From contig NZ_CP178208.1 in the NCBI RefSeq assembly GCF_047219225.1, positions 2,804,001 through 2,868,000 on the forward strand: 64,000 bases of DNA, in the 5' to 3' direction. The number at the start of each line of letters is the position of its first letter. Position 1 is the stretch's first letter. Positions 13,341-58,497 of this stretch are shown here, in pieces. Origin of the DNA: Pontimicrobium sp. IMCC45349 (GTDB lineage Bacteria > Bacteroidota > Bacteroidia > Flavobacteriales > Flavobacteriaceae). Made by a program: the position numbers and the translations under genes. A model generated the notes under the pieces. The model ran no database searches. It saw only the letters and a program-made list of their open reading frames with translations, and was not told the DNA's origin.

Positions 13341-13551
13341 TTGAAGGTTCGTTTAACGGTCTAGTATAAGAAAAGTAGGGCAGTTGTATGCGTTACTTTT
13401 CGGATTAAGCTAAAGCCGAATTTTTAAATTTTGTTATTTATCTTTTCTCCTTTTAATATACCAAATTTAAAAATTTGGCGACTTGACAAATACGCACAGA
13501 CCTTTCGATTAAGCACTTTTTGCCCTATTTTTTTTATACATTGTTAGGCAC
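13341..13551. repeat. B-type cassette-flanking element, copy B1 (3' flank of the DUF262/HEPN cassette)
   Basis: It begins with GAAGGTTCGTTTAACGG, the same core as at 20758, 34026 and 53946. About 200 nt are homologous to 20755-20904. The inner end (tatacattGTTAGGCAC) overlaps the stop codon of the 13544..14050 gene and is the inverted partner of GTGCCTAAC at 15146. Confidence 0.8.
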
Positions 13552-14050
13552 TGGCTTCTTCTTGATTTAATTCCGTTTCAATGAACCTAATCACTTCTAT
13601 TGTTTTGTTTAAATAATTTTCCAATTTTATTATTGTAATGTCAGAATCTCTACCGTGTGCAATATTATGTCTGTCTTTTAAAATATAATTTATAGCTGCA
13701 CCACGATTTTCCTCTTGCAAGTAATCCCGTAATAAGTCGTGCCAATCAGGATTAAAGGACTTTGCTAATGCTCTTATTTTTTCACTATTAGCATTTTGTA
13801 TTTTATAGAGTTGTGATTTTGCATAAGTCAAAACAACAGATGGCTCACAACTATTTTCGGCAATATCAGTAAAAGCGTGGTAAACAGAATTTTCTATAAA
13901 TCCGGAACAGAGAACACAAATATATTTTGTTAAATGCGACCTCAATTCGTCATCAGGTTCGAATTCCTTGGCTTTTAATATTAATTGCTGAATACGATTG
14001 TATTGTATATTTAATTCGGGATTATTGAACATATTGATTAATATATTCAT
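13544..14050 (-). CDS. HEPN-domain protein (predicted RNase/toxin-type effector), partner of the DUF262 protein
   Basis: 168 aa with an R-x4-H HEPN motif (RHNIAHG) near the C-terminus. It overlaps the upstream DUF262 gene by 29 nt. Confidence 0.6.
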   Translation of the reverse strand: MNILINMFNNPELNIQYNRIQQLILKAKEFEPDDELRSHLTKYICVLCSGFIENSVYHAFTDIAENSCEPSVVLTYAKSQLYKIQNANSEKIRALAKSFNPDWHDLLRDYLQEENRGAAINYILKDRHNIAHGRDSDITIIKLENYLNKTIEVIRFIETELNQEEASA

Positions 14051-15116
14051 TGAACAATCTGTGTCTTTCTGCTACAACTTTATCATCTGAAGTAGCTCTA
14101 GTTATTGAATCAACAAAATCTTGATTTTGATATAGAGTATTTATGTTTTGGGCAAATGCCTCAAAATCAATATTTTCATCTATTCTGTTTGCTATTCCAA
14201 CCATTAAAACCTCAAATGCTGATGCATTAAATACTCTGTCTGGTCTAAATGCAGATTTGCCAATATTTTCAAGTATAATATCGGTAGTTCTTTTAAAAAT
14301 CGAACTTAATCTTTCTAATTCTTCTTCTGTTGGGTTTCTATAACGGCCATTAAACTTATTTAAAAACTCCTTTAGAGGTTTACTATATCTATCTAGCGAA
14401 TTATACATAGCAAAAAATCTCAATATCATTTCTTGGTCTTTAAGTCTATTATTCTTTTTACCGAATAATTCTCTCCAAGCTGGATAATCATTTAATTCTG
14501 CAATTAATTCATTCAACTTCCCAATATAAATTGCTGCTCTAATTTCTTGGGGTGTAAGTTTTCTTCCACCTGTATTTAATCGTTCAAAAACGTGATAAAT
14601 ACTGGTGTTATCATCAGTTGGTGTCTCTTGTTTAATTATTGTAGCGTGAATAATTGAATCATCAAGATTTATTCTGTCATCTTCTTCTAACTCTTCATAA
14701 GTTTTGCCTTCGAATTTTTCTTGAACGTTTTTGAGCCTAAATACTTTTTTTCTTGTATCTCCTTCTTTGGGATTGAAAAAGCCTTCATAGAAAAAAAGCA
14801 ATGATTTTAATCGTTGTTGTCCGTCAATTACTGAAAGTTTATTAGAATCACTCTCTTTGGCTAAAAATACTCCTGGTACTGGAAGTCCAAGCAATAAAGA
14901 CTCAACGAGTCTAGAAGCTTCAGCTTGATTCCAAACATAATCTCTCTGAAATGGCGGTATGAAAATGTCTCCTCTTTTAAGTCTTTTTACAAGTCCTTCT
15001 ACATCATAATCAGCTCCATAACTTGATATTCCATAAATTTGAGGTGAAGATGAATCTTCATTTTCTTCAACATCAATTACTGGGTCATCTATATCTTCTG
15101 TTTCGTATCCATTCAT
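14022..15116 (-). CDS. DUF262 (ParB/Srx-like nuclease-fold) domain protein
   Basis: Motifs FQRDYVW and VIDGQQRL are hallmark DUF262 (GmrS-like N-terminal domain) signatures. 364 aa. Confidence 0.75.
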   Translation of the reverse strand: MNGYETEDIDDPVIDVEENEDSSSPQIYGISSYGADYDVEGLVKRLKRGDIFIPPFQRDYVWNQAEASRLVESLLLGLPVPGVFLAKESDSNKLSVIDGQQRLKSLLFFYEGFFNPKEGDTRKKVFRLKNVQEKFEGKTYEELEEDDRINLDDSIIHATIIKQETPTDDNTSIYHVFERLNTGGRKLTPQEIRAAIYIGKLNELIAELNDYPAWRELFGKKNNRLKDQEMILRFFAMYNSLDRYSKPLKEFLNKFNGRYRNPTEEELERLSSIFKRTTDIILENIGKSAFRPDRVFNASAFEVLMVGIANRIDENIDFEAFAQNINTLYQNQDFVDSITRATSDDKVVAERHRLFNEYINQYVQ

Positions 15117-15145
15117 ATTTTTTATTTCTAAGAGTTTGTTTTTCA

Positions 15146-15262
15146 GCTTGTGCCTAACGTATTTATATAAACACGTTTTAATGGTTTATATAAAAGTGTT
15201 AAACGAAGTTAGCGTTTTTACGTCAGAAAATCAATACGTATAAATACGTAATTTTATAGTAT
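15146..15262. repeat. A-type cassette-flanking element, copy A1 (5'/promoter-side flank of the DUF262/HEPN cassette)
   Basis: ~110 bp near-identical to 24106-24222 and 34874-34980. Contains TTTATATAAA-N13-TTTATATAAA, GTTAAACGAAGTT (inverted partner of the B core) and TACGTA-N4-TACGTA. It lies 37 nt upstream of the start of the 14022..15116 gene. Confidence 0.85.
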
Positions 15263-17687: not shown

Positions 17688-17912
17688 TTTAGTATGGTTT
17701 TATAATTAAGATGAAGCAAGAATACTATCTAATAATCGTAGTTTAAAAAGAATGTGATTACTAGACCTTTCTATGTGGTAGATGTATGAAATAAAGTGAA
17801 ATATGTTATACTTCACATAAATATAGAGTTTGGTCACTTTAAGTACTTAGTTTAACCCATTGTAGGTTTTAAAACTATATAAAACCCTATTTTTGAGATT
17901 TAAACACTTTGG

Positions 17913-20754: not shown

Positions 20755-20904
20755 GAGGAAGTTCGTTTAACGGTCTTGTATATGAAAAGTAGCGGATTTT
20801 ACACACTAACTTTTCGGAATATAACAGACTTTAAATTTATAAAATTCATTTTCGTTTAAGCACTAAAACAGCTATTTTTTATATACGTTGTTGTGTTTTC
20901 GTAC
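20755..20904. repeat. B-type cassette-flanking element, copy B2 (3' flank of the R-M cassette)
   Basis: It starts GAGGAAGTTCGTTTAACGGTCTTGTATATGAAAAGTAG..., homologous to B1 over ~150 nt. The inner end (atatacgttgttgtgttttcgtac) is the inverted partner of gtatgaaacacaacgtattta at 24106. Confidence 0.8.
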
Positions 20905-21013
20905 TTTATTTTTCCATTCTGCTGATAGCGTTGGCAAAGCCATACTCTTTTGCAATTTTTGGTGTAGCTGTGGATGAAGCGAATTGCAAATGTGTATGGC
21001 TTTTAGCGTTGGC

Positions 21014-22405
21014 TTATTTCAGATATATTTCGTCTTTCACATAACTTGCGTTTAGCCAAAAACAATGTTTTGTATATTCAGTCAAACCTGTTAATTTATC
21101 TACTACAGGTAATTCATAAGTATCTGCTGCATTTCTCGCGTGTGGTCTAACGTGACTAATTCTGTTTTCAGTTTTCTTTGGGAAATAAGTTTTTCTCACA
21201 CCTTTTTCAGTTACTTCTTTTACGATTTCTCCACTTTTAACTGTCTTTACCATTTCTTGCCAAACATTTTTGGCTTCAACAATATCAGAGTAGGGCATAT
21301 TCCAAAATTTCACTTTTCTTAAAATCAAATTTTCTCCCTCAAATTGATAAAAGACGAAGAAAAATTTACTTTCCAAAATGTTCTTAAAATCTGAATCTTC
21401 CCAATCTGTTTCAACAAGTTCTAGATATTCAAATGTAGGAAACGAAATATCTTCTTTTGGTAAATCATTTTCTTTAAGTCGAATAGTTTTGACTTGAATA
21501 TCTGCTTTTTCAAATTCCTCTATCTTTTGACCGAGTTCAAGTCCAAGAATAGCATTTGTAAGATTTGCAAAATAACTTTTAGCTTTCTGGTTTAATTCTA
21601 AACCCAATTCTTGTTCAATTTGTTCAGCGGATTTTCCATAAAATGGGTGGAATTTTAGAATTACTATTTCTTCTATTGAACGTACTTTTTCTAAAATTTC
21701 TGGCTGCTCAATTATTTTTCCATAAACAGCTGTTTCTTCTTGAGCAATATTTGCGATTATATGATTGACATAACCTTGTTTTAAAGAATATGCTCTTTGT
21801 TTTGCTTTTTCATTATTAAATGGCTGGTCTCTATATGATTTTAGAGCTGTTGAGCCTTTTGTACAAGCTCCAAGATAAAATGTATCTCCTTCTGATAATT
21901 CGTGAGCTTTTCCGTCTTTTATTTTTTGATTGATAAATTCCCAATCTTGCTTAATAATTTTTAAATCTTCGTTCGGATATTGCCAACCGTCAACTAACTT
22001 TATTATGTAGTCAAGTAAATTTAAATCTCTGTCGTGTAGATAGAATACTAAAAGTAAATGGGCATTTTTCTTCCAAAATGAACTAGTTTCAAACTCTTCT
22101 TTGTGAACTTCTAAATAATTAATGATATTTAAAACAAGTCTTTCTTTTGAACGATATTCTCCATTTTTTAAAGTTTTTAATGGACTTGATTTTAGTTCAA
22201 TTCCTGCTTCTTTAAAATCAGGTTCTGCATCAGAATTTGGTTCGTAACCAAAATAGAATTTTTCTAAAATCTGACCGAAATTTCCCTTTCCTTTATAACC
22301 GTGTTTTTCAATTTCAACTCCACAAGCTTGTCTTAAAGTTTGGTTTTTAAGTTGTTTTGCAAATTCTATTATTGAATCTGCCGAAGTTATATCAAGCATA
22401 TTCAA
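21014..22405 (-). CDS. type II restriction endonuclease, MutH/Sau3AI family
   Basis: The N-terminal block GKGNFGQILEKFYFGYEPNSDAEPDFKEAGIELKSSPL matches the MutH/Sau3AI catalytic signature D-x6-E-x-K. 463 aa. It overlaps the upstream C5-methyltransferase gene by 14 nt. Confidence 0.7.
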   Translation of the reverse strand: MNMLDITSADSIIEFAKQLKNQTLRQACGVEIEKHGYKGKGNFGQILEKFYFGYEPNSDAEPDFKEAGIELKSSPLKTLKNGEYRSKERLVLNIINYLEVHKEEFETSSFWKKNAHLLLVFYLHDRDLNLLDYIIKLVDGWQYPNEDLKIIKQDWEFINQKIKDGKAHELSEGDTFYLGACTKGSTALKSYRDQPFNNEKAKQRAYSLKQGYVNHIIANIAQEETAVYGKIIEQPEILEKVRSIEEIVILKFHPFYGKSAEQIEQELGLELNQKAKSYFANLTNAILGLELGQKIEEFEKADIQVKTIRLKENDLPKEDISFPTFEYLELVETDWEDSDFKNILESKFFFVFYQFEGENLILRKVKFWNMPYSDIVEAKNVWQEMVKTVKSGEIVKEVTEKGVRKTYFPKKTENRISHVRPHARNAADTYELPVVDKLTGLTEYTKHCFWLNASYVKDEIYLK

Positions 22406-23639
22406 ATTGGTTTATCTGTTTATAAAGTTCTACTCCAATTTTTTCAATTATGCCTACAACTAATGCATTTCCCATAAAAAAGGCTCGTTTAGTGTCTGTA
22501 ATTCCTTCCAATTTGGTGTGATTATCTGGAAACATATTTAATCTCTCTAATTCAATTGGTGTCAATCTTCTTAAACCTCTATCAGAAACAACTACGTGTT
22601 TAAACCTTGAAGGTGATTTTCCACCTTCTCCTGTTATTATTGTTCTAGAAGCATTATCTAGAGCGTCAGGATAAATCATTCCGCCTTCACTATAATTGTA
22701 TTCAAAACCTTCTTTTGTTTTTCTTTTTTCTTTTTTAGCACCTTTTAAATATTCCCATTTTGGTTTGTCGTTTTCATCAATGAAAAATTCAGGTGTTACT
22801 TCTCCGTTTTGTAGAACATCTGCTAAAACAGTTTTTTGCCCATCGTAATTTGGCTCTGTTTTAGTTGTGAAAACTTTATCATTAATTAATAAGCCTGTAT
22901 TTTGAAAAGGCGATAGCTTTCCATTCTTATTGAAATTGTCTGTTATTTCTACTAAATCTCCTTTTAATTCAACTTCTTGAATTGCATTTGTTTTTGCAAC
23001 AGGAAAAGCATTTGCTATTGTTCCTTCTTCTATTAACCAATTTGTTTTATTAGATTTTTTAAGTCTTTTGTAAACGTCAGTTGATTTGTGATAACCTATA
23101 AAGAAAACTCTACGTCTTCTTTGTGGCATTCCATATTCAGCTGCATTTATAACTCGCCATTCTACTGCATAACCTAAATCATTTAAACTTTGTAACATAA
23201 CAGCAAAATCACGACCTCTTTGTTTTGCTGGGGATTTTAAAAGTCTATCAACATTTTCTAAAAAAAGATATTTCGGCTTGTTCTTTTTGTTCTCTAAAAT
23301 TTTATGAATTGACCACCAAAGAACACCTTTTTTACCTTTTAAACCTTTTGAATTATGCAATGTAGTTGCAACAGAATAATCTTGACAAGGAAAACCTCCA
23401 ACTAATAAATCGTGATCTGGAATTTCTTCTACATTTCTTGTTACTACTTCGTTTATATCTTCGTTAGAATGATTTTCATTTCCAAAACGAGCTTCATAAA
23501 CCATTGATGCGTGTTGCGTTTTGGTTGACGGTTCCCATTGATTACTCCAAACAACTTCGTAATTGCTTTTTTCAAGTCCAAGACGAAATCCTCCAACTCC
23601 TGCAAATAATTCTGCAACTCTCATTTTCTTATTTTCCAT
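22392..23639 (-). CDS. DNA (cytosine-5)-methyltransferase
   Basis: Motif I (ELFAGVGGFRLGL), motif IV (GGFPCQDYS) and motif VI (ENV) of C5 methyltransferases. 415 aa. Confidence 0.85.
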   Translation of the reverse strand: MENKKMRVAELFAGVGGFRLGLEKSNYEVVWSNQWEPSTKTQHASMVYEARFGNENHSNEDINEVVTRNVEEIPDHDLLVGGFPCQDYSVATTLHNSKGLKGKKGVLWWSIHKILENKKNKPKYLFLENVDRLLKSPAKQRGRDFAVMLQSLNDLGYAVEWRVINAAEYGMPQRRRRVFFIGYHKSTDVYKRLKKSNKTNWLIEEGTIANAFPVAKTNAIQEVELKGDLVEITDNFNKNGKLSPFQNTGLLINDKVFTTKTEPNYDGQKTVLADVLQNGEVTPEFFIDENDKPKWEYLKGAKKEKRKTKEGFEYNYSEGGMIYPDALDNASRTIITGEGGKSPSRFKHVVVSDRGLRRLTPIELERLNMFPDNHTKLEGITDTKRAFFMGNALVVGIIEKIGVELYKQINQFEYA

Positions 23640-23937
23640 TTTCTTGAGCTTTATAATAGTTAATTTTTTCTTCTGCTACTTTTAATATTTCGGAAGTCGA
23701 TTCCGTGTATTTTAGTTCGTCTGCAATTTTTTCCGAATACCAATTTATGATAAGTTCGTTTTCGGGAAGTTCGTAAAACTTTGCAAGTCTTACGATTTGT
23801 TCCATTGTCGGTTTTCTTTCGTTTTTCTCGAATTTGCTAATCAGAGATTGATCAATATCTACTTCAGCTGCAACTTTTCGAAGTATCAATTCTTTTTCCT
23901 CTCTGGCACATTTTAAAGTGTCGCCTAATGTTTTCAT
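23629..23937 (-). CDS. XRE-family HTH transcriptional regulator, probable controller (C) protein of the R-M operon
   Basis: A 102-aa helix-turn-helix protein (LRKVAAEVDIDQSLISKFEKNERKPTMEQIVRLAKFY). It is the first gene of the C-M-R operon and overlaps the methyltransferase start by 11 nt. Confidence 0.65.
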   Translation of the reverse strand: MKTLGDTLKCAREEKELILRKVAAEVDIDQSLISKFEKNERKPTMEQIVRLAKFYELPENELIINWYSEKIADELKYTESTSEILKVAEEKINYYKAQENGK

Positions 23938-24105
23938 TGGTTAAAATTGTTTTAGACAAATATTGTCCAAATTTATAAAAACATTTTGGATTTCCAACTT
24001 TTAATTCGGATTATTTCGAGCGTTGGGAAATTTTAGCTCTTTTGGTTTTTAGAGCATTGGAAATTAGCGTTGGCAAAAACCAAAAGTGCTAAAATATGCG
24101 GCTGG

Positions 24106-24222
24106 TAGTATGAAACACAACGTATTTATATAAACACGTTTTAATGGTTTATATAAAAGTGTTAAACGAAGTTAGCATTTTTGAGCTTAAAAATCAATAC
24201 GTAGAAATACGTAATTTGAGTA
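24106..24222. repeat. A-type cassette-flanking element, copy A2 (5' flank of the R-M cassette)
   Basis: Near-identical to A1 and A3 (GTATTTATATAAACACGTTTTAATGGTTTATATAAAAGTGTTAAACGAAGTTAGC...AATCAATACGTAGAAATACGTAATTT). Confidence 0.85.
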
Positions 24223-34020: not shown

Positions 34021-34165
34021 ATTTGGAAGTTCGTTTAACGTGTTCGTGTATGGTTTGTGCGGAATATTCCGTGAGGAATATTCCGAGTGTTCTGTTGTTT
34101 CTTTAAAGTTAGGAAATTTAATTGAAGTTCATGTGATAGCATGAACTATACACGTTGTTAGGCAT
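34021..34165. repeat. B-type cassette-flanking element, copy B3 (3' flank of the Zn-ribbon/membrane cassette)
   Basis: It starts GGAAGTTCGTTTAACG. It contains twin palindromes GGAATATTCC x2 (34062-34084) and a perfect 8-bp hairpin AGTTCATG-TGATAG-CATGAACT (34125-34146). The inner end tatacacgttGTTAGGCAT overlaps the stop of the 34158 gene and is the inverted partner of ATGCCTAA at 34874. Confidence 0.75.
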
Positions 34166-34529
34166 TGGCTTCTTTATCACTTGATTCAAACCGAGATTCG
34201 ATTAATTTCATTTGATTTAATATATCAATAGGTTTTGAGGTTTCAGACTTATGTTTTTCCTGAGAAAAATAAAGAGATAGTAGTCCACCAACCAGAAATA
34301 TTCCAAATAGAGCAATCACTAAGTATTGATATCGAATGTCCTGAAATTCCGTACCCAATAACGTTATTAGGCAAGGAACACAAGCACCAAGAAATAAAAA
34401 TCCTATTTTATTAAATATATTAACATTTATATCAATTTCTCCTAGTTTATCTTTTATGAATTTCCATTCACTTATAGCAATTGGATAAGCTTTGCCTTTT
34501 TGATGAGACATTAATTCATATTCTTGAGA
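34158..34529 (-). CDS. small two-TM membrane protein (second gene of the Zn-ribbon module; start taken at the internal Met that avoids overlap)
   Basis: The ORF-track version (34158..34598) would overlap the upstream gene by 47 nt. The Met at 34529 (MSDNGNN...) removes the overlap. Two hydrophobic helices (IGFLFLGACVPCLITLLG, LVIALFGIFLVGGLLSLYF). The last codons (..EANA*) are encoded by the B3 repeat. Confidence 0.5.
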   Translation of the reverse strand, partial: SQEYELMSHQKGKAYPIAISEWKFIKDKLGEIDINVNIFNKIGFLFLGACVPCLITLLGTEFQDIRYQYLVIALFGIFLVGGLLSLYFSQEKHKSETSKPIDILNQMKLIESRFESSDKEANA

Positions 34530-34551
34530 TACCGAAAAGTTGTTTCCATTA

Positions 34552-34842
34552 TCACTCATCTTTCTTAGTTTTTTTAGGTTCAACTTTTGGTTTTTCAATA
34601 GCTTGCGAAACTAATGCGTTAACTAAAACAGTATTTCCACAATTATTACAGTTTACGGGAATTATTGGATAGATTGGTCCTCCTCCAATGACAATATTTC
34701 CTCCCTGAAATTGTCTTAATTCATAAACAGTATCGTTAACAGTCCAACTGTTAGAATTACACATTGGACAAGCTCTATTTCCCCATTTCTCATTTAAGTG
34801 TTTTAATAGCTTATCTAAATCCGGTTTGTTGTCTTCTGACAT
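34552..34842 (-). CDS. small Cys4 zinc-ribbon protein
   Basis: 96 aa with CPMC (aa 25-28) and CNNC (aa 65-68) pairs and a Lys-rich C-terminal tail. It is the first gene downstream of the A3 element. Confidence 0.55.
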   Translation of the reverse strand: MSEDNKPDLDKLLKHLNEKWGNRACPMCNSNSWTVNDTVYELRQFQGGNIVIGGGPIYPIIPVNCNNCGNTVLVNALVSQAIEKPKVEPKKTKKDE

Positions 34843-34873
34843 TATATTTGTTTTTTTGATTTAATTTTTGCTT

Positions 34874-34980
34874 ATGCCTAATGTATTTATATAAACACGT
34901 TTTAATGGTTTATATAAATTGTTAAACGAAGTTAGCTTTTTTAAGTAAGAAAATCAATACGTAGAAATACGTATTTAGGC
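34874..34980. repeat. A-type cassette-flanking element, copy A3 (5' flank of the Zn-ribbon/membrane cassette)
   Basis: Near-identical to A1 and A2. TIR-like GTTAAACGAAGTT at 34921-34933 and TACGTAGAAATACGTA at 34958-34973. It begins 32 nt upstream of the start codon at 34842. Confidence 0.85.
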
Positions 34981-47952: not shown

Positions 47953-48177
47953 ATGAAATTAAGATTAAATCCGTTAGCATCAGATATATTCATATCTGTA
48001 TATGTTATTATATCCTTATTTCTTCGTTTTAAATTTGAGAGTGAAAACCCTGTAAGTCCTGTAAACTCTATTGTTTTAGGGATTGGTTTTGTTGTGATTA
48101 TTTGGGCACTCATTAAGTTAAAATTCTTAAATCCAAATTGGTTCGGTTTGTTTAAACCAAAAAAATCAAAATCATGA
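47953..48177 (+). CDS. small membrane protein translationally coupled to the prpE-like gene
   Basis: 74 aa and two hydrophobic helices. Its stop overlaps the next start (ATGA). Confidence 0.4.
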   Translation: MKLRLNPLASDIFISVYVIISLFLRFKFESENPVSPVNSIVLGIGFVVIIWALIKLKFLNPNWFGLFKPKKSKS

Positions 48178-50060
48178 CATATCAAGAATTTTATAAGAGC
48201 AGTATTCAGGACCCAAAAACGTTTTGGAATGCACAAGCACAAGAACTAGATTGGCACAAAATGCCAAACAATACATTGTCAAAAGACAATGATGGATTTT
48301 ATCAATGGTTTGAAGATGGAAAACTTAACTTAAGTTATTTATGTATAGATAAACATATAGCAGATGGTTATGGTAGGCAAAATGCTATTATTTACGATTC
48401 GCCTGTAACTAATACTAAAGAGATAATTACTTTTAATAGGCTTCAAAAAGAAGTGTCAAAGTTAGCAGGTGCTTTAAAAGAATTAGGCTTACAAAAAGAA
48501 GACACAGCAATTATATATATGCCTATGATTCCTCAAGCCATTTATGCAATGTTGGCTTGTGTACGTATTGGTGTAACACACTCAGTCGTATTTGGAGGAT
48601 TTGCACCTCATGAGTTGGCAATTCGTATAGATGATTGTCAACCAAAAGTAATTATTACAGCATCTAGTGGTATTGAAGTTGATAGAATTATTCCATATAA
48701 ACCTTATGTAGATGAAGCTATAGTATTATCTCAGCATAAACCTGAAAAGGTATTGTTATATCAAAGACATTTAGGAGCAGATGCTCCTGCAAAACCTTAT
48801 GATGTAGATTATTTAGAAGCAGTTAAAAACGCTATACCAGCAGAACCAGTAGTGGTTGATTCTACACACCCTTCATACATCTTATATACTTCTGGAACTA
48901 CTGGTAAACCAAAAGGGATTATTAGAGATACAGGTGGTTATGCAACCGCTTTAAAATTTTCGATGAAGCATGTTTATGGAGTAGAATCAGGAGACGTTTA
49001 TTGGGCTGCTAGTGATGTAGGTTGGGTTGTTGGTCATAGCTATATAGTTTATGGTCCTTTATTAAATAGAAATACAACAGTGTTGTTTGAAGGTAAACCT
49101 ATTAGAACACCAGATGCTTCTACATTTTGGAGAGTTATTAGTGAACATCAAGTACGTGTTATGTTTACAGCACCTACAGCTATTAGAGCAATAAAAAAAG
49201 AAGATCCAAATGCAGAGTTCTTGAAACAATACGATATATCATGCCTAAAATATCAGTTCCTTGCAGGTGAACGTTGCGATGTATCTACACTTAAATGGAC
49301 TGAAGAAAAACTAGGTGTTCCAGTAATTGATCATTGGTGGCAAACCGAAAGTGGTTGGCCAATGTTAGCAAATATGGCAGGAGTAGAATTGCAAAAAGTA
49401 AAACCTGGATCAGCAACATTTCCCGTATGTGGATATGATTTACAAATATTAAATGAAAAAGGCGAAGTAGTACCTAATGGTACCGAAGGTTATGTAGCTG
49501 TTAAGCTTCCATTACCACCAGGAAACTTAAGAAATATTTGGGGTAATCCAGAGCGTTTTAAAGCAGGTTATCTTGAAAAGTTTCCAGGCTATTATTTTTC
49601 TGGTGATGGAGGCTATAAAGATGAAGATAATTACGTGTATATAACAGGTCGTGTAGATGATGTTATAAATGTGGCAGGTCATAGATTATCTACTGCCGAA
49701 ATGGAAGAAGTTGTAGCTGCTCACGATTCAGTGGCTGAGTGCGCTGTTATTGGTATTCATTGTGATTTAAAAGGACAAAAGCCTTTAGCATTGGCAGTTA
49801 CAAAGTCTGATAATATAATGGCTGAATCTGTAATTCAAGAAGATATTGTAAAAGAGGTAAGACATCATATAGGAGCTGTAGCTTCTTTAAAACAAGTAAT
49901 ATTGGTAGATAGACTACCAAAAACACGTTCAGGAAAAATTTTAAGAAAGCTACTTAGAAACATAGCAGATAAAAATGAGTATAAGGTGCCTTCAACTATT
50001 GATGATATAAACATTATTGGAGAAATAGAAACCGTATATAAATCACACAATGTCATTTAG
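48174..50060 (+). CDS. propionate--CoA ligase-like acyl-CoA synthetase (PrpE/AcsA family, AMP-forming)
   Basis: 628 aa with a PrpE-like N-terminus (EFYKSSIQDPKTFW...), YTSGTTGKPKG, IYMPMIPQA..LACVRIGVTHSVVFGGFA and a WWQTESG block. Confidence 0.7.
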   Translation: MTYQEFYKSSIQDPKTFWNAQAQELDWHKMPNNTLSKDNDGFYQWFEDGKLNLSYLCIDKHIADGYGRQNAIIYDSPVTNTKEIITFNRLQKEVSKLAGALKELGLQKEDTAIIYMPMIPQAIYAMLACVRIGVTHSVVFGGFAPHELAIRIDDCQPKVIITASSGIEVDRIIPYKPYVDEAIVLSQHKPEKVLLYQRHLGADAPAKPYDVDYLEAVKNAIPAEPVVVDSTHPSYILYTSGTTGKPKGIIRDTGGYATALKFSMKHVYGVESGDVYWAASDVGWVVGHSYIVYGPLLNRNTTVLFEGKPIRTPDASTFWRVISEHQVRVMFTAPTAIRAIKKEDPNAEFLKQYDISCLKYQFLAGERCDVSTLKWTEEKLGVPVIDHWWQTESGWPMLANMAGVELQKVKPGSATFPVCGYDLQILNEKGEVVPNGTEGYVAVKLPLPPGNLRNIWGNPERFKAGYLEKFPGYYFSGDGGYKDEDNYVYITGRVDDVINVAGHRLSTAEMEEVVAAHDSVAECAVIGIHCDLKGQKPLALAVTKSDNIMAESVIQEDIVKEVRHHIGAVASLKQVILVDRLPKTRSGKILRKLLRNIADKNEYKVPSTIDDINIIGEIETVYKSHNVI

Positions 50061-50169: not shown

Positions 50170-52077
50170 ATGAGTAATTATCATATAAAACATCTAGAAG
50201 AATACTATCAAGTTTATAGAAAATCTGTACGAAATCCTGAAGGGTTTTGGGAAGAGATTGCAGAAGAGCATTTTTTATGGCGTAAAAAATGGGATAATGT
50301 ATTGAGTTGGGATTTTTCTAAACCAGAAGTAAAGTGGTTTGAAGGTGCAAAACTTAATATTACAGAAAATTGTATTGATAGACATTTAGCAACTCGAGGT
50401 GATAAAACAGCTATTTTATTTGAACCTAATGACCCAAATGATCCAGCTGAACACATTAGTTATAGACAGTTATATCATCGTGTTAACAAGTTTGCAAATG
50501 TGCTAAAAGCTCAAGGTATAAAAAAAGGTGATCGTGTTTGTATTTATTTACCGATGATTCCTGAGTTGGCGATTTCTGTATTGGCTTGTGCTCGTATAGG
50601 TGCAATTCACTCAGTAGTATTTGCAGGATTTTCATCAACTGCATTATCAACTAGAATTAATGATAGCGATTGTAAAATGGTAATTACTAGCGATGGTTCT
50701 TATCGTGGAGCAAAGACTATTGATTTAAAAGGAATTGTTGATGAAGCGTTACTTGATTGTGATTGTGTAGCATCTGTTTTAGTAGCAAAACGTATTAACT
50801 CAGATATTCATATGGAAGAAGGTCGCGACCAATGGTTACAGCCTTTATTAGATGCAGCTTCAGACCAATTAACAGCAGAAGTGATGGATGCCGAAGATCC
50901 ATTATTTATTTTATATACATCAGGTTCAACTGGCAAGCCAAAAGGAATGGTGCATACTACAGGTGGTTACATGGTGTATACAGCTTATACGTTCAAAAAT
51001 GTATTTCAGTATAGAGAAAATGATGTGTATTGGTGTACTGCTGATATTGGTTGGATTACAGGACACAGTTATATTGTTTATGGACCATTAGCCAATGGAG
51101 CTACTACAGTTATGTTTGAAGGTGTGCCTAGTTATCCAGATTTTGGACGCTTTTGGGAAATTGTTGAAAAGCATAAAGTAAATCAGTTTTATACAGCACC
51201 AACAGCAATTCGTGCTTTAGCTAAACAAGGAACAGAGTTAGTTGATAAGTATGATTTAAGCTCTTTAAAAACCTTAGGTTCAGTAGGTGAGCCTATTAAT
51301 GAAGAAGCGTGGCATTGGTATAATGATAATGTAGGAAAGAAAAAAGCACCAATTGTAGATACTTGGTGGCAAACAGAAACAGGAGGAATTATGATAACAC
51401 CAATTCCTTATGCTACACCAACAAAACCAACCTATGCAACATTGCCATTTATTGGAATTCAACCTGCATTAATGGATGAAAATGGAGAAGAAATAAAAGG
51501 TAACCAAGTAGATGGTCGCTTATGTGTAAAATTTCCTTGGCCATCTATGGCACGAACTATTTGGGGAAATCATGAGCGTTATAGAGATACTTATTTTTCG
51601 GCTTATAAGGATAAGTATTTTACAGGTGATGGTGCTTTACGTGATGAGGTTGGTTATTATAGAATTACAGGTCGTGTAGACGATGTTATTATTGTGTCTG
51701 GACATAACTTAGGAACAGCACCAATTGAAGATGCTATTAATGAGCATCAAGCAGTAGCTGAGTCTGCTATTGTAGGTTTCCCTCACGATGTAAAAGGAAG
51801 TGCGTTATATGGTTATGTAACTTTAAAAGATACAGGCGAAAGCAGAGACCACGATAATTTACGTAAAGAAATTAACCAGATTATTACAGAGCATATTGGG
51901 CCAATTGCTAAACTAGATAAAATACAGTTTACTCAAGGATTACCAAAAACACGTTCTGGAAAAATTATGAGACGTATTTTACGTAAAATAGCACATAAAG
52001 ATACTTCTAATCTAGGTGATACAAGTACATTGTTAAATCCAGAGGTAGTACAAGATATTATGGATAATGCCTTATAA
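50170..52077 (+). CDS. acs: acetyl-CoA synthetase (AMP-forming)
   Basis: 635 aa with YTSGSTGKPKG, WWQTETGG and a C-terminal LPKTRSGKIMRR, all canonical Acs blocks. Confidence 0.85.
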   Translation: MSNYHIKHLEEYYQVYRKSVRNPEGFWEEIAEEHFLWRKKWDNVLSWDFSKPEVKWFEGAKLNITENCIDRHLATRGDKTAILFEPNDPNDPAEHISYRQLYHRVNKFANVLKAQGIKKGDRVCIYLPMIPELAISVLACARIGAIHSVVFAGFSSTALSTRINDSDCKMVITSDGSYRGAKTIDLKGIVDEALLDCDCVASVLVAKRINSDIHMEEGRDQWLQPLLDAASDQLTAEVMDAEDPLFILYTSGSTGKPKGMVHTTGGYMVYTAYTFKNVFQYRENDVYWCTADIGWITGHSYIVYGPLANGATTVMFEGVPSYPDFGRFWEIVEKHKVNQFYTAPTAIRALAKQGTELVDKYDLSSLKTLGSVGEPINEEAWHWYNDNVGKKKAPIVDTWWQTETGGIMITPIPYATPTKPTYATLPFIGIQPALMDENGEEIKGNQVDGRLCVKFPWPSMARTIWGNHERYRDTYFSAYKDKYFTGDGALRDEVGYYRITGRVDDVIIVSGHNLGTAPIEDAINEHQAVAESAIVGFPHDVKGSALYGYVTLKDTGESRDHDNLRKEINQIITEHIGPIAKLDKIQFTQGLPKTRSGKIMRRILRKIAHKDTSNLGDTSTLLNPEVVQDIMDNAL

Positions 52078-53940: not shown

Positions 53941-54083
53941 ATGAGGAGTTCGTTTAACGGTTTTGTGTATGGTTAGTTGCGTGTTTCAGCAACTAATTTT
54001 GCAAATCAAGCCTAATAGAAAATCGTGACGAGTAAGTAGGCGAGTACTAGCAATTAATTATACACGGTGTTGTAAAACGTTTA
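53941..54083. repeat. B-type element, copy B4 (abuts the 3' end of the WD40 gene)
   Basis: It begins GAGGAGTTCGTTTAACGGTTTTGTGTATGG (compare B3 GGAAGTTCGTTTAACGTGTTCGTGTATGG). It contains the hairpin TAGTTGC-GTGTTTCA-GCAACTA followed by ATTTT. Its inner end tatacacggtgttgtaaaacg resembles the B1-B3 inner ends and overlaps the stop at 54081. Confidence 0.65.
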
Positions 54084-55127
54084 TTCTTTGACAACTTCCC
54101 AAATCTTCACTGTTTTATCTTTACTAGGTGTAGCTATTAACTTTCCATCCGAACTTACATCCATCCCCAAACCAATGTCATCCTTATGTTCAGTTATTGT
54201 TTGAAGAATGGTTTCACTTTCAATATCCCATAGTGTTGCTATAACAGGTATTGTATATCCTTTAAAACCAAAATGATATTCTAACAGCTCTCCTAGCATC
54301 TTTTTATCTGTTCCTCCTGCCAAAATTCTATTATTTCCAACAAACACAACTGAATGAAGAGCTTTATTTTCTCCTTTTAATGTATGCATTAATTCCCAAG
54401 TATTGGTATTCCAAATTTTAATGGTTTTATCATCTCCTGCACTTGCTAATAATTCACCATTTGGACTAAAATCCATCGATAGAGGAACTAATGAATGTCC
54501 CAAAATTGTCTTTATTAACGCTCCAGATTTCACATCATATATTCTTATAGCATTATCACTGCCTGAGGCCGCTAAATAGTCTCCAGTGTGATTAAAAACA
54601 ACCTCCCAAATATTATGTGAAGATTCTGTAAATTCATATTTAATTTCTCCAGTATTTATATTCCAAACAGTTACTTTATCATCATTGCTACCAGCTGCTA
54701 TTAAATGACCATTTGGGCTAAAATCTACCGACCAAATAGTACCTTCATTACCATCTAACACTCTTAAAAGCTCTCCAGAACTCACATTCCAAAGTCTTAC
54801 TTTACCATCATAAGCTCCAGTTGCCACTAATGTCCCATCTATATTAAAATCTACAGCTGGTGAGCCCGTTTCATGTGGTAAATTATGTACTGTTTCACCT
54901 GTAATTCTATTCCAAATTTTAGTATTGGAATCTATGCCCCCACTTATCATGAGTGTATCGTTTGGTAAAAATTTCACTTCCCAAACATCACCAGAGTGAT
55001 CTTTAAACGTTTCTTTTAACTTAAGATAATTACCTTCAACTAACTTTGGTTGATTAAATAACTGTAAATATGTAAAACATGCAATACCAAATGCGAGCAA
55101 GGATATTATAATTTTTCTCTTTCTCAT
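54081..55127 (-). CDS. WD40/beta-propeller repeat protein with a signal peptide
   Basis: Repeated ...GH/SxDxTVKIWN/WD-like units throughout. 348 aa. Confidence 0.7.
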   Translation of the reverse strand: MRKRKIIISLLAFGIACFTYLQLFNQPKLVEGNYLKLKETFKDHSGDVWEVKFLPNDTLMISGGIDSNTKIWNRITGETVHNLPHETGSPAVDFNIDGTLVATGAYDGKVRLWNVSSGELLRVLDGNEGTIWSVDFSPNGHLIAAGSNDDKVTVWNINTGEIKYEFTESSHNIWEVVFNHTGDYLAASGSDNAIRIYDVKSGALIKTILGHSLVPLSMDFSPNGELLASAGDDKTIKIWNTNTWELMHTLKGENKALHSVVFVGNNRILAGGTDKKMLGELLEYHFGFKGYTIPVIATLWDIESETILQTITEHKDDIGLGMDVSSDGKLIATPSKDKTVKIWEVVKE

Positions 55128-56372
55128 TTATTTGATGTTTTCTAATTTATCAATCATTCTTTTTGCTGAAGTCGAGCTTGGATCTAATTCTAATGCCTTT
55201 TTGTATGACCTTAAAGCATTCATTTTATCGCGTTTTTGGAAATACGCTTCCCCCAAACTATCCCATGAATTGGCATCCTCTGGAAATAATTTTGTGTTCT
55301 CTTGAAATACAATAATAGCTTCATTGATCAATTTATCTTGTAGAAATCCATAGCCAATACTATTGAATACATTTCCTTTATTTCTAGTAACTGTTTTGTT
55401 TATAGCATTAATATAAGCAATTACAAAAGCCTCATTACTATTGGTTTTAACGTTGGGCTGTACACCTTTGCCCTCCCAATTTGTTTTTGTTACTGGATGT
55501 ATTGCTTGAATGTATGGTAACGAAATAGAAAAGTTATCGTTTAAATTTATAGTTTTTGTTCTGTTAGCTCCTCCTTTAGTAACTTCACCTACGACAACAG
55601 CTTTATCTAAATGTTTTAATGAATAGGTAAAAGCTTCTGCAGCAGAAAATGTGTTTTTACTTGTTAATATATATAAAGGTTTATTAGTCATCCTTTTACC
55701 ATCGATAGTTTTGAAGGTGAATAATTGTGTTTTTTCATTCGTTTTACGCTCATAGAAATTACTCAACAAAACAGGTTCCGGATCCGTAAAATAACTAGAT
55801 AACAATTGTACCATACCTGGAACACCTCCACCATTTTTTCTTAAATCTATAATAATAGCATTGGTATTGTATAGAAAGTTCATCGCAGAGGTTGCGGCAT
55901 CTTTTCCTTGTTCAAGGCTTGTAAACATACGTAAATTCAAATAGCCAATATTTCCTTTAAGAACTTTAACTTCTGTAAAACCATAATTGATTTCTGCCAT
56001 TTTCATTGCTATCATTCTCTCTTTTTGTTTTTTCATTTCTTCTGGCATAACATGTTTACTTTGTGCTATTTTTTTTGAAGCATAATTTAGTTTTAAATGT
56101 AGATCATGACTTACGTTTTGTAAATCTTGAGTAACTAGTTTTACAAAATCTTTAGGGTTTGTAACCAACTTGTACTTGTTCGATTTTAAATTAGATTTTA
56201 AGACAGAGTTCATTTCTTGGGCAATCTCTAAATCTATATATGTTTCCAATAAATTCTCTGAAATCAACTGTATTACTTCAGTTTTTTCCTTATTAGTGAT
56301 TTCCTTATTCTGTGCTTTAAGACTTAATAGAGCTAGAAACAATAATACTAATGTTATAATTTGTTTTCTCAT
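55128..56372 (-). CDS. S41-family (tail-specific/C-terminal processing) peptidase with C-terminal TPR-like repeats
   Basis: S41 signature IIDLRKNGGGVPGMV plus the C-terminal DSLGEAYFQKRDKMNALRSYKKALELDP. Signal peptide. It abuts the WD40 gene with no gap. Confidence 0.7.
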   Translation of the reverse strand: MRKQIITLVLLFLALLSLKAQNKEITNKEKTEVIQLISENLLETYIDLEIAQEMNSVLKSNLKSNKYKLVTNPKDFVKLVTQDLQNVSHDLHLKLNYASKKIAQSKHVMPEEMKKQKERMIAMKMAEINYGFTEVKVLKGNIGYLNLRMFTSLEQGKDAATSAMNFLYNTNAIIIDLRKNGGGVPGMVQLLSSYFTDPEPVLLSNFYERKTNEKTQLFTFKTIDGKRMTNKPLYILTSKNTFSAAEAFTYSLKHLDKAVVVGEVTKGGANRTKTINLNDNFSISLPYIQAIHPVTKTNWEGKGVQPNVKTNSNEAFVIAYINAINKTVTRNKGNVFNSIGYGFLQDKLINEAIIVFQENTKLFPEDANSWDSLGEAYFQKRDKMNALRSYKKALELDPSSTSAKRMIDKLENIK

Positions 56373-56578
56373 TTTGACCGATTTTAAATTTGATACAAAC
56401 CTATAGTCAATCTGTAAACCATTGAATTTAATTTCTTGTTTACATATCTTTTAAACACACATATGATTGTTTTAGTCACTAACTAAACTTGCGTCTGTTA
56501 ATAATACGTTTGTGAAGCTTTTTGGTATGTTGGTGCAAAACATTCTATGAATAACTTTAAGATTATTAGTTTTACAGT

Positions 56579-57703: not shown

Positions 57704-58407
57704 TTCATTATTTAATTATAGATGACGAACCTATAGCACATCGTATCATAGAAAAATATTGCGATAATTTACCACATTTAAAAAAGGTGGGGAATTGTTA
57801 TAATGCTTTTGAAGCGATGCACTTTTTGAATGATTATACTATTGATTTGCTTTTTTTAGATATAAATATGCCGAAATTATCGGGTTTCGATTTTTTAAAA
57901 ACGTTATCGAACCCTCCTAAAATTATTATTACAACTGCTTACAAAGAATTTGCATTAGAAGGATATGAACTTAATATTTCCGATTACTTACTAAAACCAT
58001 TCAGTTTTGACCGGTTTATAAAGGCTATAAATAAAACAATTGGTATTTCTGAAAGTAAACCTAAGACAGATATAGGTCATACATATAACAGTGAAATACA
58101 AAGCAATAGTTTTTTTTTAAAAGGAGATAAAAAGCATCATCAAATTCATTTAGAATCAATACTTTTTATTGAAGCTTATGGACATTATACTAAAGTATAT
58201 TTAGAAAACGAAATGATTGTAAGCCATGAGAAAATTTCTTCATTAGAGGAGTTTTTACCTGAATCTAGTTTTATAAGAACACATAAGTCTTTTATAGTTG
58301 CTAAAAACAAAATCAAACAAATTGAAGGTAATAGAATTTTTGTTAATGAACACAAAATACCAATAGGGCAAACTTATAAAGGAAATATAGATAAACTTTT
58401 TAGGTAG
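57700..58407 (+). CDS. LytTR-family response regulator
   Basis: REC (LIIDDEP, LLFLDINMP) plus LytTR (FIRTHKSFIVAKNKI). It overlaps the kinase stop by 4 nt. Confidence 0.85.
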   Translation: MIHYLIIDDEPIAHRIIEKYCDNLPHLKKVGNCYNAFEAMHFLNDYTIDLLFLDINMPKLSGFDFLKTLSNPPKIIITTAYKEFALEGYELNISDYLLKPFSFDRFIKAINKTIGISESKPKTDIGHTYNSEIQSNSFFLKGDKKHHQIHLESILFIEAYGHYTKVYLENEMIVSHEKISSLEEFLPESSFIRTHKSFIVAKNKIKQIEGNRIFVNEHKIPIGQTYKGNIDKLFR

Positions 58408-58419
58408 TATATTACTTTT

Positions 58420-58497
58420 CGTTATAAAATGTTAAAGGAAGTTAGCTTTTTTACATTACAAAATCAATGCGTAGAAATACGTATTTAATAACTGTAA
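58420..58497. repeat. truncated/degenerate A-type element, copy A4
   Basis: It matches the distal ~75 nt of the A element (..tgttaaaGgaagttagcttttttacattacaaaatcaatGcgtagaaatacgtattta) and lacks the first ~35 nt (TTTATATAAA pair). Confidence 0.7.

What the first reader, a model, noticed from the sequence alone, without database searches (positions are those of the whole stretch)
34158..34842. Uncharacterised two-gene module (Cys4 zinc-ribbon protein + 2-TM membrane protein) carried as a defence-type cassette
This module occupies exactly the same A/B-flanked slot type as a restriction-modification system and a DUF262/HEPN pair, so it is 'guilty by association' as a candidate anti-phage, abortive-infection or toxin module. 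The first protein is 96 aa with CPMC...CNNC and a lysine-rich tail. The second is a small membrane protein with two helices, the sort of pairing seen in membrane-disrupting abortive-infection effectors with a nucleic-acid-sensing partner. Neither has a recognisable named domain.
Basis: inference. Interest (0 to 1): 0.65.

Follow-up and report, generated by a model that had tools for sequence, protein, structure and literature searches.

The report
Mobile zinc-ribbon plus membrane-protein gene pair
The two small genes are real and form an unnamed pair (a zinc-binding protein plus a two-helix membrane protein) that travels between bacteria on gene cassettes, phages and tiny plasmids; it is probably a self-contained conflict or defence module, but no function has been tested.

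Summary
On the minus strand lie a 96-aa Cys4 zinc-ribbon protein (P1) and a 133-aa two-TM protein (P2), overlapping by 8 nt. Neither matches any Pfam, NCBIfam, PADLOC or PHROG family.

The pair is not an orphan. A profile search finds about 3,500 P1 clusters. In 10 of 11 bacterial or metagenomic contexts a P2 homologue follows directly. In the eleventh, and in about 20 viral contigs, the partner is a different 2-TM family (four tested match Pfam CyanoTRADDas_TM). The pair is the only cargo of 2.68-kb ColE1-like E. coli/Salmonella plasmids. In three temperate-phage-like contigs it sits between the late regulator and terminase. Some copies lie in defence islands.

The "A/B slot" is real but is not a defence slot. 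It resembles an integron cassette: an attC-like palindrome recombined into a promoter-bearing palindromic docking site. Such docks are widespread in Flavobacteriales, and empty ones exist. Their cargo is mixed, mostly secreted or unknown proteins with some TA and defence genes.

Best reading (about 0.45): P2 is a membrane effector controlled by P1, acting as an abortive-infection or toxin–antitoxin-like module. The defence role remains inference.

The parts
34552..34842 (-). P1: 96-aa cytosolic Cys4 zinc-ribbon protein (N-terminal helix, beta-sheet ribbon, disordered K-rich tail). First gene of the cassette.
   Evidence: ORF. Homologues. C25, C28, C65 and C68 invariant in 50 diverse members. 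AF2 model pLDDT 71.5: helix 9-19 plus strands. No family hit.
34158..34559 (-). P2: 133-aa inner-membrane protein. It has a conserved N-terminal segment (SQEYE..QKGKAYPI..EW), two TM helices and a conserved C-terminal helix (NQMxLIESRFE). Its ATG overlaps the P1 stop by 8 nt.
   Evidence: AF2 helices at 29-41, 48-69, 75-99 and 110-131. K-rich segments flank the TM hairpin, so N-in/C-in topology is inferred from the positive-inside rule.
34040..34882 (-). Inferred mobile cassette (843 nt). It runs from the base after the dock's left-arm TTTAAC to the cassette end ..ATGCCTAAT.
   Evidence: Boundaries come from comparison with empty docks, the Winogradskyella copy with the same cassette ends in a different dock, and the matching cassette ends.
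34040..34165 (-). The cassette's own recombination-site-like element (attC-like). On the gene strand it reads ATGCCTAAC-AA-CGTGTAT..[branched hairpins]..ATACACG-AACAC-G. The TAA inside CCTAAC is the P2 stop codon.
   Evidence: The reconstructed circular junction folds as a 9-bp closing stem, an asymmetric loop, a second stem and a branched tip, z = -7.6. Read by eye, the equivalent long-range stems in slots 1, 2 and 4 have different sequences.
34874..34882 (-). 5' end box of the cassette (+ strand ATGCCTAAT; gene strand ATTAGGCAT). It is complementary to the box at 34157-34165 (GTTAGGCAT).
   Evidence: Cassette-specific complementarity at a constant offset from the dock core was seen in 14 of 28 loci against 4 of 28 in a control.
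34025..34039 (.). Left arm of the docking site (GGAAGTTCGTTTAAC), an inverted copy of the right arm.
   Evidence: In empty docks this arm directly abuts the hairpin.
34883..34936 (.). Dock hairpin (stem GTATTTATATAAAC / GTTTATATAAAT, loop ACGTTTTAATG) and right arm GTTAAACGAAGTTAGC.
   Evidence: Covariance model R1 scores 68.7 bits at 34882-34935. Stem covariation over 40 docks: 79% of cells paired against 60% in shuffles, score 0.51 against 0.19.
34927..34957 (-). Putative dock promoter reading into the cassette: TTGATTTT (-33-like, + strand 34950-34957), 20-nt spacer, TAACTTCG (-7-like, + strand 34927-34934).
   Evidence: TTGAyTTT was not part of the search pattern, yet its core positions are conserved in 50-57 of 60 docks, and TTG-N20-TAACTTCG occurs in 49 of 60. 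It resembles the Bacteroidetes sigma-A consensus TTG / TAnnTTTG (my own knowledge). Not tested experimentally.
34958..34973 (.). Tandem TACGTA-N4-TACGTA element just outside the -33 box; a possible operator.
   Evidence: four copies in the window, none expected by chance. Present in 15 of 61 docks, all scored from Flavobacteriaceae-type sequences. Function unknown.

Best explanation
P1 and P2 form a self-contained, horizontally mobile two-component conflict module. P2 sits in the inner membrane with both conserved soluble segments in the cytoplasm and is the effector. When released or activated it oligomerises and permeabilises or depolarises the membrane. P1, a cytosolic zinc-ribbon protein made in fixed ratio by translational coupling, binds P2 and either holds it inactive or couples it to a trigger such as phage infection or loss of the carrier. 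The outcome is growth arrest or death of the infected or cured cell, that is, an abortive-infection or toxin–antitoxin-like module.

In this genome the pair is carried as a promoterless cassette. An attC-like site has recombined into a palindromic docking site, whose conserved outward promoter would express the pair.

Shown: the anatomy, the conservation, the pairing, the mobility and the contexts. Inferred: membrane damage, the P1–P2 interaction, the trigger and the defence phenotype.
For: 1. Strict, coupled pairing. In 10 of 11 bacterial or metagenomic contexts across phyla (Bacteroidota, a Phycisphaera MAG and unassigned contigs) a P2-family gene starts within a few nt of the P1 stop.
2. 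Partner swapping. In L116 and about 20 viral contigs P1 is instead followed by other 2-TM proteins. Four tested examples match Pfam CyanoTRADDas_TM above the curated cut-off (36-52 bits against 24.3), and one has a weak SLATT_1 hit. Two further 2-TM types have no match. A conserved small partner with interchangeable membrane effectors is typical of conflict systems.
3. Carriers. The pair is the only cargo of 2.68-kb ColE1-like mobilizable plasmids in E. coli and Salmonella. In three viral contigs examined it sits between the late regulator and terminase, not in a lysis cassette. It is a cassette in two Flavobacteriaceae genera at different chromosomal sites.
4. Neighbours include Shedu SduA_C, AAA+S8 peptidase, GmrSD, RES, DUF433 and type I RM.
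5. P2 architecture is that of small pore-forming effectors: a TM hairpin rich in small residues and a conserved amphipathic C-terminal helix.
Against: - No experimental data exist for any member.
- No hit to PADLOC models.
- P2 itself shows no detectable similarity to CyanoTRADDas_TM or SLATT (hhalign probability 0.2; Pfam).
- Several copies sit between housekeeping genes with no defence neighbours.
- About 40 more distant phage P1-like genes have no membrane partner, so P1 may have a role independent of P2.
- The dock platform carries mostly non-defence cargo.
- High-copy ColE1 plasmids do not need addiction modules.
Confidence: 0.45

Rival explanations
1. Non-lethal superinfection exclusion. 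The membrane protein, helped by P1, blocks phage DNA entry or another envelope step without harming the host, as many prophage-encoded membrane Sie proteins do.
For: P1 plus 2-TM modules are common on temperate-phage-like contigs in the accessory slot before terminase. They are membrane-located. There is no sign of an enzymatic effector.
Against: The soluble conserved parts of P2 are predicted to be cytoplasmic, with only about 5 residues between the modelled TM helices facing outside. It is unclear why an injection block would need a cytosolic zinc-ribbon partner. CyanoTRADDas_TM/SLATT-type partners are generally predicted to be suicide effectors (my own knowledge).
Confidence: 0.2
2. Not a conflict system. 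The pair is a small accessory membrane complex, for example a membrane-stress, transport-regulating or signalling adaptor, that happens to be mobile.
For: No defence-model hits. Dock cassettes mostly carry ordinary accessory proteins. Several contexts are housekeeping.
Against: It is hard to reconcile with being the sole cargo of a 2.68-kb plasmid, with repeated carriage by phages, with swapping of unrelated 2-TM partners, and with scattered distribution across phyla at different loci.
Confidence: 0.2
3. Phage lysis-timing pair (holin or pinholin plus a regulator).
For: It is a two-TM small protein encoded on phage contigs.
Against: In the three phage-like contigs examined the pair lies between the late activator and terminase small subunit, with no endolysin next to it. 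It also occurs on a plasmid and in chromosomal cassettes with no phage genes. P2 is long for a class II holin and has a 45-aa conserved cytoplasmic head.
Confidence: 0.05

Closest known systems
RexAB of phage lambda and its integron-cassette analogue Sucellos (SclAB) of the Vibrio cholerae chromosomal integron
   Same: Both are two-gene modules with a soluble partner and a small membrane protein, carried by prophages or as a single two-gene integron cassette. In Sucellos both genes are needed, and protection works by killing infected cells (bioRxiv 10.1101/2024.07.02.601686, read).
   Different: No homology with RexAB/Sucellos was tested or found. P1 is a 96-aa zinc ribbon, whereas RexA is about 280 aa (my own knowledge). 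P2 has 2 TM helices against 4 in RexB (my own knowledge). No phenotype is known for P1/P2.
2-TM effector domains of conflict systems: Pfam CyanoTRADDas_TM (PF20712) and SLATT
   Same: Same size class and layout: a cytoplasmic head, a TM hairpin and a C-terminal helix. Proteins with CyanoTRADDas_TM occupy exactly the P2 position behind P1 homologues in L116 and in phage contigs.
   Different: P2 itself does not match these models, and profile comparison finds no similarity. The relation is positional analogy, not shown homology.
Type II toxin–antitoxin operons
   Same: Two small, translationally coupled genes with a putative neutraliser first. They are mobile and found on plasmids, in phages and in cassettes.
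   Different: The putative toxin is a membrane protein, not a cytosolic enzyme. P1 has no recognisable DNA-binding antitoxin domain. The cassette has only 27 nt between its 5' box and the P1 start, so it depends on the dock promoter rather than on autoregulation.
Integron gene cassettes (attC x attI/attC recombination by IntI)
   Same: This concerns the carrier, not the proteins. Shared features are promoterless cargo followed by an imperfect palindrome with R''..L''..L'..R'-like boxes, AAC/GTT at the junctions, cassette-specific complementarity of the two cassette ends, and a stop codon inside the R'' box. Expression comes from a platform promoter, and the cargo spectrum is similar (unknowns, secreted proteins, TA, MazG-like, defence).
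   Different: No integrase and no attI are seen, and there is no long tandem array of the integron type. Single cassettes sit in many dispersed docking sites, each with its own promoter. The only tandem case, in Psychroserpens, repeats the whole dock-plus-cassette unit. Integrons are reported as nearly absent from Bacteroidetes (PMC9024848).

Membership tests
Known anti-phage defence systems (PADLOC-DB 2.0 models) | Significant match of either protein to a model of a known or candidate defence protein | tested here: not met
   P1 and P2 have 0 families at E <= 0.1. Among 50 diverse P1 members only isolated hits with E >= 0.02 appear.
SLATT / CyanoTRADDas_TM 2-TM effector domains | Sequence match of P2 to PF20712 or the SLATT Pfam models | tested here: not met
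   P2 and six P2-family homologues have no such hit. hhalign of the P2 profile against the L116 CyanoTRADDas_TM protein gives probability 0.2. Proteins replacing P2 behind P1 do match (36-52 bits).
SLATT / CyanoTRADDas_TM 2-TM effector domains | Two-TM hairpin with cytoplasmic flanking helices, encoded next to a sensor or regulator gene | tested here: met
   AF2 model and alignment. Pairing with P1 in 10 of 11 contexts.
Type II toxin–antitoxin system | Two small adjacent co-transcribed genes, translationally coupled | tested here: met
   The overlap is 8 nt here and in L001, and 4 nt in L110, L115 and the E. coli plasmid.
Type II toxin–antitoxin system | Toxicity of one product, neutralised by direct binding of the other | not testable with these tools
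   Needs expression and interaction experiments.
Abortive-infection sensor plus membrane channel (RexAB/Sucellos type) | Sequence or fold similarity to RexA/RexB | tested here: inconclusive
Abortive-infection sensor plus membrane channel (RexAB/Sucellos type) | Phage protection by death or arrest of infected cells, with both genes required | not testable with these tools
   Needs an experiment.
Phage holin/antiholin | Location in a lysis cassette next to an endolysin | tested here: not met
   In L119, L130 and L135 the pair lies between the late regulator (phrog_36/248) and terminase small and large subunits.
Integron gene cassette (the carrier) | attC-type site: imperfect palindrome with outer (R) and inner (L) stems around a variable tip, with AAC...GTT at the ends | tested here: met
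   Sequences; fold z = -7.6. The stems of slots 1-4 differ in sequence, by my own reading.
Integron gene cassette (the carrier) | The first bases of the linear cassette derive from its own site (cassette-specific R'/R'' complementarity) | tested here: met
   GTGCCTAAC/GTTAGGCAC in slot 1, ACACAAC/GTTGTGT in slot 2, ATGCCTAAT/GTTAGGCAT in slot 3. Exact 8-mers in 14 of 28 loci against 4 of 28 in a control.
Integron gene cassette (the carrier) | Platform with an intI integrase, attI and Pc, and a tandem cassette array | tested here: not met
   A motif search found no tyrosine-recombinase ORF in the window or next to any dock. Docks are dispersed and hold single cassettes. Whether an IntI-like gene exists elsewhere in the genome could not be tested.
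Integron gene cassette (the carrier) | Extrahelical bases in the L stem and bottom-strand recombination | not tested
   Would need IntegronFinder's attC model and experiments.

The most novel reading that the evidence does not exclude
The A/B 'slots' are a so far undescribed integron-like gene-capture platform of Flavobacteriales. Many dispersed palindromic docking sites of about 110 nt each carry a conserved outward promoter. Single promoterless cassettes with their own attC-like sites are recombined into them by an unidentified trans-acting recombinase. The P1–P2 pair is one of the cassettes traded through this platform, and is itself a new membrane-acting abortive-infection or toxin–antitoxin family that also rides on phages and on a 2.68-kb E. 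coli plasmid.
Probability: 0.4. Interest if true: 0.85.

Novelty: new variant of a known kind. Interest (0 to 1): 0.65.

Why it matters
1. A large family has no model in Pfam, NCBIfam, PADLOC or PHROGs. It comprises about 3,500 clusters at 50% identity, spread across phyla, phage-like contigs and plasmids. It has the genomic behaviour of a defence or addiction module.
2. A natural E. coli plasmid whose only cargo is this pair makes the function directly testable.
3. The carrier suggests that integron-style cassette capture exists in Bacteroidota, where integrons are reported as almost absent. Here it takes a dispersed, one-cassette-per-promoter form. If true, this would change how accessory genes and defence systems are thought to circulate in marine Flavobacteria.

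Tried and rejected
- Domain searches of P1 and P2 against Pfam, NCBIfam, PADLOC and PHROGs gave nothing usable.
- tblastn of three P1 variants against cultured-phage GenBank records found no match.
- Rfam found no family for the dock or the attC-like site.
- RNAalifold gave no consensus for the AT-rich dock hairpin, so pairs were counted on a structure I specified.
- A literature search for the dock motif, for Flavobacterial integron-like cassettes and for the E. coli protein accessions found nothing relevant.
- I considered an IS200/IS605-type ssDNA transposon and rejected it, because only one end of the cassette is structured. This was judged by inspection, not by a separate test.
- I considered a MITE-like composite with terminal inverted repeats moving as a whole. 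This is rejected for the cassette, because the same cassette ends occur in different dock variants and near-identical dock flanks hold different or no cassettes. It remains open for how the docks themselves spread.
- Slot 4 as one cassette is rejected. Its B site is degenerate (28.9 bits), its ends do not match, and it contains a two-component system.
- L115 as a cassette array: no dock-type repeats were seen.
Full report
**1. The observation**

The window has about 31% G+C. P1 is 100% identical to a hypothetical protein of Pontimicrobium sp. IMCC45349, a member of the Flavobacteriaceae. On the minus strand, 34552..34842 encodes P1. It is 96 aa with CPMC at residues 25-28, CNNC at 65-68 and a K-rich tail.

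The next ORF is listed from a TTG at 34598. The ATG at 34559 gives the 133-aa protein that NCBI annotates (P0020, 100% identity and coverage). That ATG overlaps the P1 stop as ATGAGTGA, and the same overlap is present in the Winogradskyella copy.

P2 has two hydrophobic helices, modelled at 48-69 and 75-99, between a conserved head and a C-terminal helix. K-rich segments lie on both sides of the hairpin. By the positive-inside rule this suggests that both soluble parts are cytoplasmic; that is inference.

Neither protein matches any Pfam, PADLOC, NCBIfam or PHROG family at a meaningful level.

**2. The pair is a conserved unit found well beyond Flavobacteria**

The word-indexed search found only 15-19 relatives of each protein. 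A full profile search with P1 found 3,511 clusters (at 50% identity) with E <= 1e-3 and 967 with E <= 1e-10. Most are stand-alone proteins of 80-110 aa, and some look as if they come from high-G+C organisms. The four Cys are invariant in 50 diverse members.

I examined eleven distinct bacterial or metagenomic contexts.
- In ten, a P2-family gene starts within a few nt of the P1 stop. In L114 that gene is uncalled but readable in frame.
- The conserved P2 features are N-terminal SQxYE..GKAYPI..EW, two TM helices, and C-terminal QMxLIExRFE.
- In the eleventh context (L116) the following gene is an unrelated 2-TM protein. It matches Pfam CyanoTRADDas_TM (36.3 bits against a cut-off of 24.3). Profile comparison with the P2 family shows no similarity.

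**3. Carriers and neighbours**

- *Cassette at different sites.* In a Winogradskyella-like TARA contig the pair (73% identical proteins) lies between different housekeeping genes but has the same cassette ends.
- *Viral contigs.* IMG/VR holds 87 P1-encoding loci. One has a P2-family partner. About 20 have other 2-TM partners of 143-188 aa a few nt downstream. Of six partners scanned, three match CyanoTRADDas_TM above the cut-off (40-52 bits), one falls below it, and two have no match; one of the matching proteins also has a weak SLATT_1 hit. About 40 more distant P1-like genes have no membrane partner.
- *Position in phage-like contigs.* In three contigs the pair lies between the late transcriptional regulator and the terminase small and large subunits. 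An anti-repressor and an SSB lie upstream. That is an accessory slot, not the lysis cassette.
- *Plasmids.* Fifteen ColE1-like mobilizable plasmids of 2.68 kb from E. coli and Salmonella carry the pair as their only cargo, alongside rep, MobA and Rop. The P1 homologue is 90 aa and overlaps a 134-aa P2-family homologue by 4 nt. Among 5,426 complete E. coli genomes, 14 have it. It is always on that plasmid and annotated as hypothetical.
- *Neighbours elsewhere.* These include SduA_C (Shedu), AAA+S8 peptidase, GmrSD plus an IS, RES, DUF433, GNAT and type I RM. Other copies sit between housekeeping genes.

**4. What the A/B slot is**

The left repeat core (A, AGTTCGTTTAAC) is the inverted copy of a core in the right repeat (B, GTTAAACGAAGT).

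One scan of 185,579 species genomes with the B core found the site in many Flavobacteriaceae genera and in other Flavobacteriales, including Vicingaceae MAGs. It also gave some chance hits inside an unidentified conserved gene of unrelated phyla.

*Empty sites.* In 14 or more of the sites the left arm directly abuts a hairpin of about 40 nt followed by the right arm. This empty site was predicted from the window before the scan was run (note).

*Dock hairpin.* The hairpin has a conserved loop (GTTTTAATG) and a stem whose sequence differs between genomes. Across 40 docks, 79% of cells are paired against 60% in shuffles. The covariation score is 0.51 against 0.19, and 0.22 or less when the partners are slid.

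*Filled sites.* In filled sites the cargo lies between the left arm and the hairpin. Read on the gene strand, every well-formed window cassette has the same layout:

dock promoter region – GTTTAAC – hairpin – G|TTRnnnn – genes – nnnnYAAC – long imperfect palindrome – G|TTAAAC GAACTT

The two cassette extremities are complementary in a cassette-specific way:
- slot 1: GTGCCTAAC / GTTAGGCAC
- slot 2: ACACAAC / GTTGTGT
- slot 3: ATGCCTAAT / GTTAGGCAT

Across 28 filled loci, 14 show an exact complementary 8-10-mer at a constant offset, against 4 in a shifted control.

*The cassette's own site.* In each window cassette the region downstream of the genes has a second, inner long-range stem whose sequence differs between slots (my reading). 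The reconstructed circular junction of slot 3 folds as a 9-bp closing stem, an asymmetric internal loop, a second stem and a branched tip, with z = -7.6. The reconstructed empty dock gives z of about -6.5. The P2 stop codon lies inside the CCTAAC box.

*Evidence that the cassette, not the dock, is the mobile unit.*
- Docks in two related genomes have 99% identical right flanks. One is empty (L050, Gaetbulibacter) and one is filled (L005).
- Other docks with similar right flanks (about 89-91% identical) hold different cassettes (L045/L103 and L037/L090).
- The Winogradskyella P1–P2 cassette keeps its own ends but sits in a dock with a different hairpin.

*Promoter.* A TTGAyTTT box lies exactly 20 nt upstream of TAACTTCG in 49 of 60 docks, although it was not part of the search pattern. 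This fits the Bacteroidetes TTG / TAnnTTTG promoter form (my own knowledge). In at least 22 cassettes the substantial ORFs all point away from it. Only 27 nt separate the cassette's 5' box from the P1 start.

All of this parallels integron cassettes: an attC-like site, a G|TT-type junction and a platform promoter. However, a motif search found no tyrosine recombinase in the window or next to any dock. The docks are dispersed and mostly hold single cassettes. Integrons are reported as nearly absent from Bacteroidetes (PMC9024848). I found no description of this platform in the searchable literature, and Rfam has no matching family. The recombinase and the strand mechanics are unknown.

**5.

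Cargo of docks in other genomes is listed below.
- a T9SS CHU_C protein
- several lipoproteins and secreted proteins of unknown function
- LytTR, MazG-like, CarboxypepD_reg, PD40 and amidohydrolase proteins
- ParE+ParD
- an AAA_15/AbiEii-like ATPase

The platform therefore carries general accessory genes, with defence and TA cargo as a minority. In this window two of the other slots do hold defence systems. Sharing a slot type with an RM system is thus weak evidence. The case for a conflict role rests on the distribution of the pair itself (sections 2 and 3).

**6. Mechanism**

My best-supported model has confidence of about 0.45. P2 is a membrane-permeabilising or depolarising effector. P1 is its coupled cytosolic regulator, acting as neutraliser and/or trigger sensor. 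Together they would give abortive infection and/or post-segregational killing.

The shown steps are the anatomy, the conservation, the translational coupling, the strict pairing, the swapping of 2-TM partners, and carriage by cassettes, phage-like contigs and a minimal plasmid. The inferred steps are toxicity, the P1–P2 interaction, the trigger and protection.

Nothing supports nucleic-acid sensing by P1. Its basic tail is not conserved, and only generic zinc-ribbon similarities appear.

The rivals are non-lethal superinfection exclusion (0.2), a non-conflict accessory membrane function (0.2) and holin-type lysis control (0.05, contradicted by gene position).

**7. Comparison with known systems**

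The pair works like RexAB or Sucellos and like regulator-plus-SLATT/CyanoTRADDas_TM modules. It fails or cannot be given the sequence-membership tests for all of them. It is therefore best described as a new variant of a known kind of system. The carrier works like an integron cassette but lacks the defining platform features in the data available.

**8. Limits**

- The AF2 models have moderate confidence (pLDDT 71.5 and 69.5).
- Only eleven bacterial or metagenomic contexts were inspected by hand, plus the viral loci (by script) and the plasmid records.
- Promoter and recombination-site assignments rest on sequence patterns only.

Noticed in passing
window 13346-15254, 20760-24217, 34025-34977; many loci L005-L109: The A/B repeats are the two halves of a palindromic docking site split by an inserted cassette. 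The cassette carries its own attC-like site. Empty docks, near-identical dock flanks with and without a cassette, and a conserved outward promoter are found across Flavobacteriales. No recombinase was identified, and no description was found in the searchable literature.
   Followed up: yes
window 15158-15212, 24121-24175, 34882-34935, 58393-58445: All four docks in the 64-kb window lie in the same orientation on the + strand, so all well-formed cassettes are transcribed leftwards. This might relate to replication direction, as proposed for chromosomal integrons. It was not analysed.
   Followed up: no
window 53947-58487 (slot 4): The A-type end at 53947 and the degenerate B site at 58393-58445 (28.9 bits) do not have matching cassette ends. 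Between them lie a HEAT-like protein, an S41 peptidase-TPR protein (both minus strand) and a putative sensor protein (no family match) plus a LytTR response regulator (plus strand). This is probably a decayed or rearranged site rather than one cassette.
   Followed up: partly
window 34958-34973, 15235-15250, 24198-24213, 58468-58483; 15 of 61 docks: Two TACGTA hexamers, usually 4-5 nt apart, sit just outside the -33-like box of the dock promoter in a subset of docks. They could be an operator for a regulator controlling all docks.
   Followed up: partly
NZ_CP028604.1 (L199) 826-1499 and 14 similar plasmids: 2.68-kb ColE1-like mobilizable plasmids of E. coli (cattle, poultry, dog, human, wastewater; one host is an O157:H7 strain) and Salmonella carry only the P1–P2 homologue pair as cargo. 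Both genes are annotated 'hypothetical protein'. This is a ready experimental model.
   Followed up: partly
L023 and L102 (Psychroserpens sp.): Two or three complete dock-plus-cassette units stand in tandem with about 900-nt spacing. The outer dock sequences are nearly identical. This suggests duplication of whole units or repeated insertion next to one another.
   Followed up: no
L045 (Polaribacter) cassette, L053 cassette: A MazG-like pyrophosphohydrolase and a ParE/ParD pair are dock cargo. By my own recollection (not checked here), both protein types also occur as cassettes of Vibrio chromosomal integrons.
   Followed up: partly
window 17845-17900: A partial core-like sequence (ACTTAGTTTAAC) followed by a small hairpin lies upstream of the gene at 17913. 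The dock model does not detect it. It may be chance or a decayed arm.
   Followed up: partly
window 48174-50060 and 50170-52077; 2857-3141 and 3373-3657: Two adjacent genes of about 630 aa appear to be tandem paralogues, sharing several DNA repeats of about 72-77% identity. There is also an internal 285-nt repeat (82% identity) inside the 846-aa ORF at 2680-5220.
   Followed up: no
L008 vs L089: Two orthologous empty docks have right flanks 94% identical. L089 has about 590 extra nt immediately left of the dock relative to L008, which may be another kind of insertion beside the dock.
   Followed up: no
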